Positions 13,622-59,833 of a stretch of DNA of 64,000 bases are shown one piece after another. Numbering within the stretch: the stretch's first letter is position 1; the number at the start of each line of letters is the position of its first letter. The notes beneath the pieces were generated by a model. It made no database searches, was not told the DNA's origin, and saw only the letters and a list, made by a program, of their open reading frames with translations. Source of the stretch: Eledone cirrhosa (Eukaryota); the NCBI GenBank assembly GCA_964016885.1, contig OZ024750.1, positions 24,428,001 to 24,492,000 on the forward strand, given 5' to 3'. The translations under genes and the position numbers were made by a program.

Positions 13622-13804
13622 TAGTTATGTAATAAACAACATAAGGCAATTATTTCATTTACCAGTGGTTTCTTAAAAGCAAACAAATTTTGCTTTCAAT
13701 CATCAGAATGAAAAACATTCTGATGATTGAAACCAAAATTTGTTTGCTTTTAAGAAACCACTGGTAAATGGAATAATTGCCTTATGTTGTTTATTACATA
13801 ACTA
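13622..13804. repeat. Near-perfect palindrome (~89-bp arms, 5-nt loop) abutting (TA)n
   Basis: TAGTTATGTAATAAACAAC...CATCAGAATG aaaaa CATTCTGATGATTGAAA...GTTGTTTATTACATAACTA. Confidence 0.85.
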
Positions 13805-14929
13805 TTAAGCTCTGTTACCTACATAGAGCACTCTTTTTTCCTGGACTTTTCCGACGGAATTACTTCATTTACACACACACACACACACACACACACACAC
13901 ACACACACACACACACACACACACACACACACACACATATATATATATATATATATACACACACACACACACGCTGCTCCTAGCTGTGTGACATGTGTAA
14001 CAACAACAAATATATTTCTTCTGGTCCCACCTCATTGCTCACCTGATAAACGCATGTCTTCCTGGATCTGGTGCCAACATTTTCTCGTTGTTATTTCTTT
14101 TACGTTTGCTGTAAATAATATTAAAATCGTTTCACCTTTCGTAACCATATTTATGATAAAAAAAACAAACAATTTATAACTTTAGTAACATAACTAAATT
14201 TCTCATTATTAAGTTGGTGTTTGGAATATAAAGGTTCTGTTTGATAAATATAAACACTTTTGTATTAAAGAAGCAGGGGTAGTCTCACGCGGGTTGGTAT
14301 CAAAACGGTTAAAAAAACAGTGCATGTTATGAAGGCATGTAGCTTAGTGGTTAAGGTGTTTTGCTCACGATTATAAGGTGGCGAGTTCGATTTCCGACAG
14401 CGCATTGTTTCCTCGAACAAGACATTTTATTTTACATTAGTCCAGCCCACTCAGCTGGCAATAAGTTCTACCTGTAATTCAAAGGGCCAGGTGAGAACTG
14501 TGCTGGTAATTCAAAGGTCCAGCCTTGTCTCACACTGAATCTCCTTAAGAACTACGTTATGGGTGAACGCGTCTGTTGGAGTGTGCAGACACTTGCACGC
14601 AAAATTTACGAGCATGAAGTTCCGATGTTCATACAACAGGAACACTCGTCGTCGAAACCGACGGAGATTCAACAATGTGTGTGTGTTTAAATTTAAGAAT
14701 ATATACGTTTATATGTTTCCTTTACACATGCATTCATACGCATACATATAATACACACACACACACACACACACACATATATATATATATATATATATAT
14801 ATATATATATAAATGAAAGGTATAGAAAATATGAAATGAATAATTATACGAATAATAGTTTCATTGATTTAAAACACTGTATTAGTGTGTATGTGTGATT
14901 AGATTTAAGGAAATATATACGTCTATGCG

Positions 14930-15248
14930 CAGGGTTAGATTTAGACCTTGGGAGGCCCGGGGCACTTCAGGTTTGGTGGGGAAGGGGGGGGGGGGTTCAT
15001 ACACAAACAATTAGAATACACAGCAACCCTTCCCCACAATTTTATATATCAAAGTTAGCTTGGCGCAAGTAATTGGAATTTAAAAGTTATACTTATAGGT
15101 ATTAATTAAATAAAAAAAATTCTAACCACCCTAAAACTAAAAAGCCCAGTTAAGGGCACAAATAAATTGTTACTGCCGTCGCTGGTGGTCCCCTTCGCTG
15201 TAGGGGACCCCGGAGAATTACCCCCTCCCCATATTATATCCAGCCCTG
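14930..15248. mobile_element. MITE with CAGGG termini (hAT-like); oppositely oriented relative at 38327-38648
   Basis: CAGGGTTAGATTTAGACCTTGGGAGGCC...ATCCAGCCCTG. The reverse complement matches GGCCCTCCAAGGTCTAAATCC at ~38622-38642. Confidence 0.6.
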
Positions 15249-17364
15249 TTTATAGGTCGTTTAACGTGATATCGATTTATTGCAACAATACAGAGTATCA
15301 GATATATAAGCTTGAAAGAGACAACAATGTGCGATGGTGTTGTGTCTTTCAAACATTTCTAAAATGAAGTGAAAGGGGTTTTATTTTTTTGTATTTGCAT
15401 GAGTCATTTTATATTATATACAATTTTATATTATATACAATTTCATTGTATATGTCTGATTGGATTTATTGAGCATACATACATTTATATGTCGCTTAAT
15501 ACGATTCAATTGGTTTATTAGATCGATACCACACGTGACATCAGATATAAATATCTGAAATACCCATGTGAGATGCTGTGGATTACATGCATTTCCCCAA
15601 AGCTATTAATACGACAAATGAAGTTAAAAGATCATTAAATGGTTAGCCAACTCGTTAATATATTTTTAACTTACCATATATATACTTATGTAAAAGTCGA
15701 CTCCTTATTTTTGGCCCCGAAATTTAGATTTTTTCCTGTATCTCATGTAAATGTCAAACCTGTTTTTCAGACAACATATCAACATTTCAGAACATGTTAC
15801 GATAAGGAAATGAATATTTATACGATATTATGTTCGGTTATAAGCAGTGGATTGACAGAATCGGTAGAGCGTCGGACATCATACTTCGCGGCAGAGTTAT
15901 GTCCCTTTAAATGCTGAGTTCAAATCGTGCCGAGGTTAGCTTAGATTTGCCTTTCATCCCTACGGGGCCGATAAATAAAGCACCAGTAATGCACTGGGGT
16001 CAGTTTAATCGATTTTCCCCTCTCCTCCACCCCCCAAAATTGTTGGCCTTGTGCCTAAATCAGAAACCATTATGTTCGGTTATAAGCAAATGAAAATATA
16101 AGAGTTACATGGCCTTTTAGAAAACAATGTGTTTAGATGTGTAGAAACATCGTTATTACTACTGTAGGTTGACATTGCCTTTCATCCTTACGGGGTCGAT
16201 AAAATAAAGTACCAGTAATGTACTGGGTAATTGCTGGCCTTGTGCCTAAAGTAGAGACAGTTATTACTACTGTAATTCATTGTTTTGCTTATTGTAGTGT
16301 GAATTCCAGCCCTTCAAAAATAGTGTTCCTTGTAATAGTCGACCACATTAATTTAATTGTTTCTACGTTAGGCACAAGGCCAGCAATTACCTAGTGTATT
16401 ACTGGTACTTTATCGACTCCGTAGGGATGAAAGGCAAAGTTAACCTCGGCGGGATTTGAACTCAGAATGGCAAGGGCCGTAACTCTATGCGTCAAAGCAT
16501 GGCGTCCGACCCTCTACCAATACTGCCAATCCACTAATCTCAAACAATAATAGTCTTAAACATTCGACATATACATGTGTATGTACGATAAAACATTTTC
16601 TTATGTTAATAAATTTTTCTGCAAAAACATGGAGGATTCCCAAGTGAAGAGGTGGTGACGTTAATTCGTTTCCCAGCGCCATTAACCATAATCTAAACAG
16701 GTTCCATTAATAATAACTTTGCCTTTCATCCTTACGGGGTCGATAAAATAAAGTACCAGTAATGCATTGGGTAATTATTGGCCTTGTGCCTAACATAGAA
16801 ACAATTAATAATATAGTAGGGGTGGTGGTGTGCTACGAAGCTCGAAATGGTAATATGCGTGTATAATATATAATTGTTTTTACTTTTGGCACAAGGCCAG
16901 CAAATACTTAGTGCATTACTGGTACTTTGTGTATAATATATAATATACATATATGTATATTATGTGTGTACGCATATTATATATTATGTTTGTACACACA
17001 CACACACACATATATATATTTATTATGTTTGTATATATATATATATATATATTTATTATGTTTGTGTGTATATATATATATATAGGAACGAGTGGGTCAT
17101 ATTTTCTCCTATATATATATATATGTATATATGTATGTATATATATATATATATATATATATATATATATATATATATATATATATATATAGCCAGAATC
17201 AGTTCCCGTCCCACCCTTGCAAGCAGGGAAAAGCGGACGTAAAATGATGATGATGATGATGATGGTATACACACTTCGTTTTTGAATTTGTTTTGCAAGA
17301 TTTCTTTGTCCAGAATTAGCCGTCGAAACGGCTTGAGCTCAGCCGTCGGGGTCCTACTCGTTCC

Positions 17365-17530
17365 TATTACCCACTCTACTACCCTAAGTATTGAGTACGT
17401 TGGTGCGTTATGGTCCATCTGGTTCCTTACCACATTTCCTTCGTTATATATATATATATATAACGAAAGAGTTGTGGTAAGAAACCAGATGGATCAGAGT
17501 ACTCAATACTTAGGGTAGTAGAGTGGGTCA
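17365..17530. repeat. Inverted repeat centred on a (TA)n tract; related sequence and a second inverted repeat at ~9990-10106
   Basis: ACCCACTCTACTACCCTAAGTATTGAGTAC / GTACTCAATACTTAGGGTAGTAGAGTGGGT. At 10020-10106: ATGAAAAATTCGGGACCCCGATGGC / GCCGTCGGGGGTCCCGAATTTTTCAT. Confidence 0.7.
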
Positions 17531-58340: not shown

Positions 58341-59372
58341 ATGTGTATATATTTGTATGTACGTGTGTGTATTTGTATGTATGTGTGTGTATTTGTATGT
58401 ATGTGTGTGTGTGCATTGTGTATATATGTATGTATTGTCTGGTTTTGTATGTTTGTGTCTTTGTATGTATGTATTTTTGTATGCAAGTGTTTTTGTATGC
58501 ATCTGCCTTTGTTTGTATTATTGTGTTTGTATGTGTGTGTATTTGTATATATGTGTATTTGTATGTATGTGTATGTATTTATATGTATGTGTGTATATTT
58601 GTATGTATGTGTGTATGCTTGTATGTATGTGTATGTATTTGTATGCATGTGTGTATGCTTGTATGTATGTGTATGTATGTATGTGTGTATGCCTGTATGT
58701 ATGTGTGTATGCTTGTATATATGTGTATGTATTTGTATGCATGTGTGTATGCTTGTATGTATGTATGTGTGTGTATTTGTATGTGTGTGTACTTGTATGT
58801 ATGTGTATATGCTTGTATGTATGTGTATGTATTTGTATGCATGTGTGTATGCTTGTATATATGTGTGTGTATGTGTGTATGCCTGTATGTATGTGTTTGT
58901 ACTTGTATGTATGTATGTATGTGTGTATGCTTGTATGTATTTGTGTGTGTTTGTATGTATGTGTGTGTTTTCTTTGAGATTTATATCAGTTCTACTTCAC
59001 AAGACAGTTCCAAAGATGTGTAAATATGTGAATGAGTTAGTATGTGTGTGTGTGTGTAATTATGTGTTAATGTGTCCATGTATGACTTAGTGTGTACATA
59101 CATGTACGTATGTATGAGCTACTGTCTACATATATATATATAACCTATGCTAGCATGGAAGATGGACGTTAAATGATGATGATGATGATATATATATATA
59201 TATATATATGTAGAAGTTCTATTTAAATTGTTGGGATACAACAAGCAAATATTTTTATAACTGATATAAAGCACTCAACAAATAATTGGGAGACTATCCG
59301 GGAGCTTCCAACAGTAATGGTCGCATTCTTTAAGGGTATGTCAATATTTATTTATAAAACTGCTCTATATTA

Positions 59373-59437
59373 TATTTTATCTGATGAAAGCACACCATAA
59401 TTTAACTTGGTGTCCTTGAAATATGTATAATGAAATA
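59373..59437 (+). ncRNA. Type I hammerhead ribozyme motif
   Basis: TATTTTAT-CTGATGA-[AAGcACACCA...TGGTGTcCTT]-GAAA-TATGTA-TA-ATGAAATA. Core intact; stem I has one G-U pair. Confidence 0.72.
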
Positions 59438-59499
59438 AATATGGTTTTATAAATATAGTTTCCATTTGTTAATATCGTATATATATATATATATATATA

Positions 59500-59833
59500 T
59501 TTCAATAATATTAATAAATGGAAACTATCTTTATAAAAAGATATTTATTTTATTATATATATTTGGCACCAGATAAAATACAGACAGTGACATATTCAAT
59601 ACTAGAACTTAGTGTTTTGAGTTCTGTTTGAATAGTATTCAAACAGAACTCAAAATACTATTCAAACAGAACTCAAAACGCTAAGTTCTTGTCTTGAATA
59701 TGTCACTGTCTGTAAAACAACTTTTGTATTTTATCTGATGAGGGCGTACCAAAAATGTTGGTACCCTTGAAATATATATAATAAAATAAATATGTTTTTA
59801 TAAAGATAGTTTCCATTTATTAATATTATTGAA
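59500..59833. repeat. Fold-back with a nested central palindrome, part of a hammerhead-bearing complex (~59210-59920)
   Basis: TTCAATAATATTAATAAATGGAAACTATCTTTATAAAAA.../...TTTTTATAAAGATAGTTTCCATTTATTAATATTATTGAA. Centre TTTTGAGTTCTGTTTGAATAGTATTCAAACAGAACTCAAAA. Confidence 0.8.
59727..59788 (+). ncRNA. Type I hammerhead ribozyme motif
   Basis: TATTTTAT-CTGATGA-[GGGcGTACCAA aaatg TTGGTACcCTT]-GAAA-TATATA-TA-ATAAAATA. Core intact, perfect stem I, palindromic stem III. Confidence 0.8.

What the first reader, a model, noticed from the sequence alone, without database searches (positions are those of the whole stretch)
13622..59833. At least nine long palindromes in 64 kb, most next to (TA)n, several folding back at or near a hammerhead core
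Seen: inverted repeats at 13622, 17365, 21917, 27725, 46805, 47474, 48676, 53700 and 59500, belonging to several unrelated sequence families. At 13622, 21917 and 47474 the symmetry centre falls within ~10 nt of the CUGANGA-like box, and at 21917 and 47474 only one arm keeps it. Inference: a shared mechanism, such as fold-back or self-primed second-strand synthesis near the ribozyme with TA-microsatellite targeting, rather than ordinary TIR transposons. The arms run almost to the centre and show no recognisable transposase termini.
Basis: partly seen in the sequence, partly recalled or inferred. Interest (0 to 1): 0.7.

Follow-up and report, generated by a model that had tools for sequence, protein, structure and literature searches.

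The report
Penelope retroelement tail-end palindromes
The long DNA palindromes are real, and most are likely back-to-back pairs of cut-down tail ends of Penelope-like jumping genes, a known pattern; their hammerhead ribozymes do not sit at a fixed fold-back point, but the tails share a small predicted RNA hairpin that likely marks where copying into TA repeats starts.

Summary
All nine palindromes exist, and 8 of 9 touch (TA)n (random mean 1). Four (13621, 21908, 27725, 59494) hold complete type I hammerheads, three hold a half or degenerate one, two hold none. The same hammerhead build occurs in 67 of 94 loci fetched with Neptune-type Penelope-like (PLE) RT+GIY-YIG proteins. In a second animal, such PLE ends form the same (TA)n-flanked head-to-head palindromes. 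This is the published PLE pattern: inverted 5'-truncated pLTR, one-sided tail, TA targeting, with self-priming already proposed. Fold-back at the core is not a rule: the centre is within 10 nt of CUGANGA in 2 of 4 window cases and 0 of 23 outside cases. The inverted arm's 5' end shows a borderline excess near the core (P 0.01-0.07). Two additions were not found in my literature searches. First, a conserved RCTC...GAGYRC hairpin lies just 3' of both alternative element ends (16 of 25 mapped ends), with a compensatory change in the window families. Second, the tail sat on the shorter inverted arm in 5 of 6 resolvable events, which favours two separately primed cDNAs over simple fold-back. No ORF is shown joined to the window's own families.

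The parts
13621..13805 (.). Head-to-head palindrome, 5-nt spacer, hammerhead in both arms; left end abuts (TA)n
13653..13713 (-). Type I hammerhead (stem I 7 bp, stem II 11 bp, palindromic helix III); predicted cut between 13660 and 13659
13806..13870 (+). One-sided tail with GCTC...GAGCAC hairpin (13809-13831), ending in (AC)n(AT)n
21908..22046 (.). Head-to-head palindrome; intact hammerhead box on the minus arm (C3 at 21973), degenerate on the plus arm; centre in the 5' strand of stem I
21849..21907 (-). One-sided tail with ACTC...GAGTAC hairpin, ending in (CA)(TA)n
27725..28205 (.). Head-to-head palindrome, 32-nt spacer, hammerheads at 27911(-) and 28013(+), both arms with the long end, (TA)n on both sides; high-copy family
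28123..28149 (+). ACTC...GAGTGC hairpin; short ends of other copies run into (TA)n at 28115-28123
59494..59839 (.). Head-to-head palindrome; hammerhead at 59735(+), stem II deleted in the left arm; micro-palindrome and 23-nt duplication at the junction
59840..59916 (+). One-sided tail (hairpin 59839-59863) ending in (TA)n
59373..59478 (+). Older solo copy of the 59494 family with hammerhead (C3 59381), ending in the same (TA)n tract
17309..17540 (.). Two copies meeting tail-to-tail in a central (TA)n; the left copy has the 3' half of a hammerhead and the ACTC...GAGTAC hairpin
   Evidence: hammerhead half read by eye
47474..47612 (.). Palindrome, 11-nt spacer; stem II, GAAA and stem III present, CUGANGA box imperfect and in the spacer; likely a PLE end
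48672..49113 (.). Palindrome of about 265 bp interrupted by a SINE (48755-48925); shares the cleavage-site 12-mer of the 21908 family, no CUGANGA; likely a PLE end
46805..47021 (.). Palindrome, about 13-nt spacer, no hammerhead fold; origin unassigned
53695..53783 (.). Short palindrome with T-run spacer between (TA)n; no hammerhead; origin unassigned
9945..10106 (-).
35851..35913 (+). Solo, decayed copy of the 21908 family (89% identical)
34143..35332 (-). Broken Neptune-type PLE ORF remnant (Cys linker and GIY-YIG), split by a TTAA-flanked MITE at 34358-34587; not shown to belong to any palindrome family

Best explanation
Most of the palindromes (four with strong support, three more with partial support) are likely heavily 5'-truncated insertions of Neptune-type Penelope-like retroelements, in which two short copies of the element's hammerhead-bearing 3' repeat sit head to head in a (TA)n tract. 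Inferred mechanism: the GIY-YIG endonuclease nicks both strands of a TA microsatellite. Each free 3' end primes reverse transcription at one of two internal start sites on the element RNA, each a few bases 5' of a conserved RCTC...GAGYRC hairpin and often at a short UAUA that can pair with the target. Both cDNAs stop early (arms of about 50-140 nt) and join at their 3' ends through 0-3 nt or imperfect inverted homology. The use of two start sites gives the one-sided tail. The hammerhead lies 60-105 nt from the paired ends, so short arms often end in or near it; it is a passenger and not the fold-back trigger. Shown: anatomy, hammerhead motifs, hairpin conservation and position, tail polarity. 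Inferred: every enzymatic step. Confidence is about 0.9 for PLE origin of the four complete cases and about 0.55 for the two-primer route.
For: The same descriptor finds a hammerhead in 67 of 94 loci fetched with Neptune-type RT+EN proteins, mostly 100-300 nt after the ORF end or 170-215 nt before the ORF start. L063 and L066 have the same stem I and box as window 28013 and 59735. In G001, L102 holds (TA)n-flanked head-to-head palindromes of families that follow a PLE ORF in L110 and L104; one spacer matches the ORF-end region of L104. Among 106 hammerheads in G001 there are 23 head-to-head events, against 3 hammerheads in convergent pairs; (TA)5 follows within 200 nt in 35 of 101, background 102 of 2280. 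GAGYRC follows the cut site in 41 of 52 distinct stem-II sequences, against 2 of 54 upstream. The full hairpin occurs in 38 of 52 (a second copy in 20), against 24 of 2600 shuffles. 16 of 25 mapped (TA)n-abutting ends lie -3 to +11 nt from a hairpin start, both short and long ends. In fetched loci the stem is GCTC/GAGC in 52 of 52; in the window it is ACTC/GAGT in 5 of 7 copies, GCTC/GAGC in 1 and mismatched in 1. The tail is on the 5'-shorter arm in 5 of 6 resolvable events. Junction microhomology is 0-3 nt in the 8 of 16 events that had a reference. Reads of the 27725 family show ends at 28105, 28115, 28123 and 28206 running into (TA)n; of the 40 variants shown (of 83), none hits an invariant core position and only the free N7 varies in the core. 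A Neptune-type ORF remnant is in the window (HMM iE 1.4e-17). Literature: PMC8557442 (inverted copy, tail, TA bias); PMC11167929 (a PLE protein nicks and extends both strands, two internal start sites, hammerhead not needed for insertion in vitro); PMC4209133 (min-HHR pairs on opposite strands 100-700 bp apart).
Against: No ORF is shown attached to any window palindrome family, because no genome is held and the only remnant is separate. Beyond stem I and the hairpin, window arms have no significant DNA similarity to the fetched PLE loci. 46805 and 53695 have no PLE hallmark, and 47474 and 48672 lack the hairpin. 9 of 25 mapped ends had no hairpin nearby, and the 16 positives come from about 10 families, with duplicates. 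One of 6 G001 events, and window 21908, carry the tail on the longer arm. The two arms at 27725 share alleles that are rare in the reads, which fits fold-back or gene conversion equally well. The inverted arm's 5' end is within 15 nt of the box in 8 of 23 events, a borderline excess. The 21908 hammerhead is not the predicted minimum-energy fold. 'Neptune-type' rests on the Cys linker, which Nematis shares; no tree was built.
Confidence: 0.72

Rival explanations
1. Same PLE origin, but the second arm is made by fold-back: the first cDNA snaps back on itself and self-primes, and the endonuclease later trims one arm at the short site (the published self-priming model).
For: Spacers are near zero at 13621, 21908 and 59494. 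There is a micro-palindrome with a slipped duplication at 59494. The arms share rare alleles at 27725. Microhomology at junctions. Self-priming is proposed in PMC3846280, and EN-mediated resolution of the tail in PMC8557442.
Against: In 5 of 6 resolvable events the tail is on the arm that would be the copy and is missing from its template, so an extra, site-exact trimming step is needed. Solo copies end at the same two sites. Spacers of 50-3300 nt are common in G001.
Confidence: 0.25
2. The hammerhead (its fold, or an RNA 5' end just upstream of it) sets where the inverted arm stops, as the first reader proposed in stronger form.
For: Window centres at 6.5 and 3.5 nt from the box. In G001 the arm start is within 15 nt of C3 in 8 of 17 short-range events (uniform P 0.013), and 6 events fall at +10 to +17.5 (permutation scan P 0.024, post hoc). 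An earlier AI report on another genome (e1-7858061, unchecked) describes a pile-up 8-12 nt upstream.
Against: Centre within 10 nt in 0 of 23 G001 events. The spread measured from C3 (SD 27) equals the spread of arm length (SD 27). Permutation P 0.07 and exponential-null P about 0.05. Only 3 of 56 assessed copies stop 11-15 nt upstream (confounded by overlapping loci). Read joints fall at 28053, 28107 and 28183. Hammerhead mutants insert normally in vitro (PMC11167929).
Confidence: 0.2
3. The palindromes are MITE-like or foldback DNA transposons with long TIRs that target TA.
For: TA flanks and long inverted arms; 46805 and 53695 lack PLE hallmarks; a true TIR family (TTAA-flanked MITE) is abundant in the window.
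Against: One-sided tails, solo single-arm copies (35854, 59381, 9961), variable joints and ends within one family, complete hammerheads, and no termini shared among families. I did not compare with a TIR library, because none is available.
Confidence: 0.05
4. Non-LTR retrozyme (tandem hammerhead monomer) insertions.
For: Type I hammerheads with a weak palindromic helix III and no coding sequence; retrozymes are reported as PLE derivatives (10.64898/2026.07.22.740005).
Against: No tandem array in the window carries a descriptor hit. Copies are single or inverted and end at PLE-type sites.
Confidence: 0.05

Closest known systems
Insertion structure of EN+ Penelope-like elements: inverted 5'-truncated pLTR with optional tail (PMC8557442 Fig. 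2 legend; PMC3846280)
   Same: Head-to-head inverted copies, one-sided tail, (TA)n targeting, junction palindromes, many unrelated-looking families.
   Different: Here both copies are cut to 35-240 nt with no ORF. Tails are about 60-80 nt rather than 30-40 nt. The tail usually lies on the shorter inverted arm in the outside set.
[quoted passage not shown]
   Same: CUGANGA and GAAA boxes, long stem II with an extra base, palindromic helix III, pairs on opposite strands a short distance apart.
   Different: Helix III is 6-7 nt (14 nt at 21973) and stem I up to 8 bp, A/U-rich. Activity is untested here.
Poseidon element PAc of the green anole (Frangieh et al. 2024, PMC11167929)
   Same: AT-rich target, both strands primed, two internal RT start sites that define the tail, start sites tied to a stem-loop.
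   Different: In PAc the ORF starts within the hammerhead and the start site is not homologous to the target. In the fetched Neptune-type loci the ORF starts about 170-215 nt after C3, both ends precede an RCTC...GAGYRC hairpin, and many begin with a TA-like 3-5 nt match to the target.
Non-LTR retrozymes (PMC7229834; 10.64898/2026.07.22.740005)
   Same: Non-coding, type I hammerhead, PLE-related.
   Different: No tandem monomers here.

Membership tests
EN+ Penelope-like element (Neptune-type) 3'-end insertions | Type I hammerhead with palindromic helix III in the 3' repeat | tested here: met
   Complete in 4 of 9 palindromes; partial in 3; absent in 2
EN+ Penelope-like element (Neptune-type) 3'-end insertions | Inverted 5'-truncated copy, head to head | tested here: met
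   13621, 21908, 27725, 59494 and 10019 are head to head; 17365 is tail to tail
EN+ Penelope-like element (Neptune-type) 3'-end insertions | Optional one-sided tail, two alternative 3' ends | tested here: met
   Tails at 13806-13870, 21849-21907 and 59840-59916; short and long ends in reads of the 27725 family
EN+ Penelope-like element (Neptune-type) 3'-end insertions | (TA)n or microsatellite target | tested here: met
   8 of 9 against a random mean of 0.98
EN+ Penelope-like element (Neptune-type) 3'-end insertions | 3' repeat belongs to an element with a single RT + GIY-YIG ORF | tested here: inconclusive
   No ORF joined to a window family; a separate remnant lies at 34143-35332. Linkage is shown only for look-alike families in other animals. 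No genome held.
EN+ Penelope-like element (Neptune-type) 3'-end insertions | RT phylogeny places the parent element in Neptune rather than Nematis | not tested
   Only the Cys linker motif was seen; no tree was built
EN+ Penelope-like element (Neptune-type) 3'-end insertions | Target-site duplication | tested here: inconclusive
   Cannot be read inside microsatellites
Hammerhead ribozyme | Self-cleavage of the RNA | not testable with these tools
   Motif only; no Rfam hit at gathering score
MITE / TIR DNA transposon | Fixed, symmetric termini shared by all copies | tested here: not met
   One-sided tails, solo arms, and variable ends and joints in the one family with read data; not tested for 46805 and 53695
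MITE / TIR DNA transposon | Arms match a known transposon TIR | not testable with these tools
Non-LTR retrozyme | Head-to-tail monomers, each with a hammerhead | tested here: not met
   No descriptor hit in any tandem array of the window; genome-wide arrays could not be tested

The most novel reading that the evidence does not exclude
Neptune-type PLEs carry a conserved, usually duplicated RCTC...GAGYRC hairpin that works like telomerase's template-boundary element. It positions the RT a few bases upstream, on a short UAUA that pairs with a nicked (TA)n target. A dimeric enzyme uses one site for each target strand, so the short site starts the main cDNA and the tail site starts the short inverted cDNA. 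One cis-element would then explain TA targeting, the one-sided tail and the head-to-head palindromes, and the inverted cDNA may tend to stop just upstream of the hammerhead.
Probability: 0.4. Interest if true: 0.6.

Novelty: new member of a known kind. Interest (0 to 1): 0.35.

Why it matters
The flagged pattern itself is ordinary PLE debris and useful mainly for annotation: such stubs look like MITEs or miRNA hairpins (one search returned many sub-threshold miRNA hits). PMC8557442 names the origin of the inverted structures, the tail and the microsatellite bias as open questions in PLE biology. The conserved hairpin beside both ends and the tail polarity give two directly testable predictions for them. 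If transcribed, these perfect palindromes would also form long dsRNA; that is untested here.

Tried and rejected
Rfam at gathering score gave 0 hits; at E up to 10 the 150 rows shown of 367 were sub-threshold, almost all miRNA models, and were rejected as hairpin or TA artefacts. The first strict descriptor missed 21973 because it allowed no extra base at stem II; it was relaxed. An ORF starting at the ATG of the CUGAUGA box, as in PAc, stops within 30 codons at 13706 and 28013 (read by hand). Family-specific DNA patterns found 0 matches in metagenome contigs, 19 in prokaryote genomes and 1 in viral contigs; I took these as chance from their bacterial titles and did not examine them. A word-based protein search with the 75-aa EN piece found nothing. 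Locus searches with P0050 alone and in viral contigs found nothing. Five other contaminated bins held too few hammerheads to use. No RNA holder was listed for the 27725 arm. The read end pile at 28063 in X9 is likely a restriction-site artefact of the RAD library. The truncation-point survey is confounded by overlapping loci and palindrome self-matches and was given little weight. Palindromes at 16166-16446 and 56037-56542 are pairs of SINE copies, and 719-1176 is a pair of MITE copies; all three were excluded. A link between the 35854 copy and the adjacent ORF remnant could not be shown. My guess from memory that the host is an octopod was not tested; the passages of PMC13282606 and PMC5625713 that I read do not describe these palindromes.

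
Full report
Observation. The window is microsatellite-rich animal-type DNA with no Rfam family at gathering score and no held genome. Self-BLAST and arm alignments confirm all nine inverted repeats. 48672-49113 is one palindrome of about 265 bp with a SINE in its left arm. 17365 is two copies meeting tail to tail in a central (TA)n. A tenth palindrome lies at 10019-10106. (TA)4+ lies within 15 nt of an outer end in 8 of 9, against a mean of 0.98 and a maximum of 5 in 5000 random placements.

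Hammerheads. My type I descriptor asks for CUGANGA, stem II of 3 bp or more, GAAA, helix III, UH and stem I of 4 bp or more. It finds 7 sites (13706-, 13720+, 21973-, 27911-, 28013+, 59381+, 59735+) against a mean of 0.1 and a maximum of 2 in 100 block dinucleotide shuffles. Six lie in four of the listed palindromes. Predicted folds show stems I and II for 13706, 27911 and 59381, stem II only for 59735, and a different fold for 21973. By eye, 47474, 48672 and 17365 keep only a 3' half or a degenerate core; 46805 and 53695 have none. Public reads laid on 27945-28211 show a high-copy family (2927 contigs in X1). Among the 40 variants shown of 83, only the free N7 position varies in the core. Loose ends at 28105, 28115, 28123 and 28206 run into (TA)n, and opposite-strand joints occur at 28053, 28107 and 28183.

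Link to Penelope-like elements. A Pfam scan of 150 frames (148 of the 239 that passed my filter, plus 2 others) found a weak GIY-YIG hit at 34425-34814(-). Its relatives (1115 proteins; 2758 for P0050) are RT+EN proteins with a Cys linker of the Neptune/Nematis type. An HMM from 98 of them finds one broken remnant in the whole window, 35332-34143(-), best iE 1.4e-17. It is not shown to be joined to a palindrome. With these proteins I fetched 78 metagenome and 16 genome-bin loci. The same descriptor hits 67 of 94, mostly 100-300 nt after the ORF end or 170-215 nt before its start. L063 and L066 have the same stem I and box as window 28013 and 59735. L102, animal-type DNA inside bin G001, holds two (TA)n-flanked head-to-head palindromes. 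Their hammerheads are those that follow PLE ORFs in L110 and L104. So PLE ends demonstrably produce this structure. Published work agrees: inverted 5'-truncated copy, tail and TA bias (PMC8557442, passages); min-HHRs in pLTRs, including pairs on opposite strands (PMC4209133, parts 1-2 of 4); head-to-head junction palindromes read as self-priming (PMC3846280, parts 1-4 of 5); both strands nicked and extended, two internal start sites, hammerhead dispensable in vitro (PMC11167929, parts 1-2 of 4).

Does it fold back at the core? In the window the centre is 6.5, 3.5, 50.5 and 88 nt from C3 for the four complete cases. For an outside test I took 114 stretches of G001 around pattern matches. I left out matches with no visible stem II and those on the large contigs C745-C747. 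They hold 106 distinct hammerheads and 23 head-to-head events; 3 hammerheads are in convergent pairs. The centre is within 10 nt of C3 in 0 of 23 and within 15 nt in 1 of 23. The inverted arm's 5' end is within 15 nt in 8 of 23. Among the 17 events with an arm start between -45 and +100, P is 0.013 against a uniform null, about 0.05 against exponential nulls and 0.07 by permuting arm lengths; a post hoc 8-nt scan gives 0.024. The spread from C3 equals the spread of arm length (SD 27 each, 16 short events). A cruder survey found 3 of 56 copies stopping 11-15 nt upstream. The strong claim fails and a weak excess remains open. An earlier AI report on another genome (e1-7858061) claims such a pile-up; it is a lead only.

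A conserved tail hairpin. GAGYRC follows the cut site within 130 nt in 41 of 52 distinct stem-II sequences of the ORF-fetched loci (38 of them at 49-71 nt), against 2 of 54 upstream. With an upstream RCTC it forms a predicted 4-bp stem in 38 of 52, with a second copy in 20, against 24 of 2600 shuffles. Of 25 (TA)n-abutting ends mapped onto longer copies, 16 lie -3 to +11 nt from a hairpin start, both short and long ends, and many begin with a TA-like 3-5 nt in the element itself. The other 9 had no hairpin nearby, and the 16 come from about 10 families with duplicates. All 52 motif-bearing sequences in the fetched loci have GCTC/GAGC. In the window 5 of 7 copies have ACTC/GAGT, a compensatory change, 1 has GCTC/GAGC and 1 old copy is mismatched. 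The short ends at 13621, 21908, 59494 and 10019, and in reads of 27725, lie 0-9 nt before it (read). This ties the window families to Neptune-type ends independently of the hammerhead. Searches for a description (search listings and passages only) found none. The library lacks most subscription papers and Repbase, I did not read Arkhipova 2006 or 2017, and I opened no supplements, any of which may describe it.

Route. Of the 20 G001 events examined, 6 had both a resolved spacer and a one-sided tail. In 5 the tail is on the 5'-shorter arm and absent from the longer arm. A fold-back copy cannot contain sequence that its template lacks, unless the template was trimmed later at an exact site. In the window, 13621 and 10019 appear to follow the same polarity (inferred from stem pairing) and 21908 does not. 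Junctions show 0-3 nt of microhomology in the 8 of 16 events with a reference, two of them with longer imperfect homology; both models predict this. I therefore favour two separately primed cDNAs, one from each nicked strand of the TA tract (about 0.55), over fold-back with trimming (about 0.25). All enzymatic steps are inferred. A search for twin priming applied to PLEs listed no such paper among the 15 of 22 shown.

Verdict. The feature is real and belongs to a known kind: truncated, inverted PLE 3' ends, with strong support for four palindromes, partial support for three and none for two. The hammerhead is likely a passenger that lies where short arms tend to end. The hairpin and the tail polarity are the parts worth following. 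Other papers seen: 10.64898/2026.07.22.740005 (part 1 of 5), PMC7229834 (passages), PMC5625713 (passages), PMC13282606 (passages) and PMC12602865 (passages, nothing relevant). The host was not determined.

Noticed in passing
window 46927-47021 and 47367-47461: A 95-bp direct repeat (98% identical; the right arm of the 46805 palindrome) flanks a 343-bp SINE at 47022-47366. It looks like an unusually long target-site duplication made inside a palindrome.
   Followed up: no
window 17266-17306 and 17691-17731: A perfect 41-bp direct repeat brackets the 17365 tail-to-tail pair and a long (TA)n.
   Followed up: no
window 34358-34587, 33630-33850, 36085-36526, 713-890, 1010-1227, 43138-43546, 45969-46568, 62684-62871: An abundant MITE of about 230 bp with TTAA-CCCTT ends (piggyBac-type by recalled pattern). 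One copy splits the PLE remnant, and one has grown a 73-bp tandem array at 46118-46554.
   Followed up: partly
window 34143-35332 (-) and 35690-35913 (+): The Neptune-type ORF remnant and a decayed hammerhead copy point away from each other across a (TA)n/(TG)n tract, as one large head-to-head insertion would; no link shown.
   Followed up: partly
window 59205-59480: An older tail copy on the minus strand and an older hammerhead copy on the plus strand lie head to head beside the 59494 palindrome, which suggests repeated use of one TA tract.
   Followed up: partly
window 59615-59678: The junction of the 59494 palindrome holds a hairpin with a 1-nt loop and a 23-nt tandem duplication, like a slipped restart.
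   Followed up: partly
window 16166-16446 and 56037-56542: Inverted pairs of two SINE families; the second pair flanks a (TA)n. They are not hammerhead elements.
   Followed up: partly
window 29787-30104 (-) and about 33900-34140 (-): A weak zf-RVT hit (E 9.5e-4) and a stretch that resembles a LINE C-terminus by recall.
   Followed up: no
G001, G002-G006 (L099-L114): Several prokaryote genome bins contain contigs with PLE ORFs and hammerheads, likely animal host DNA carried into the bins.
   Followed up: partly
window 3373-3434 (+): CTGATGA and a later GAAA run straight into (TA)n; possibly a hammerhead copy cut at helix III. It fails the descriptor.
   Followed up: no
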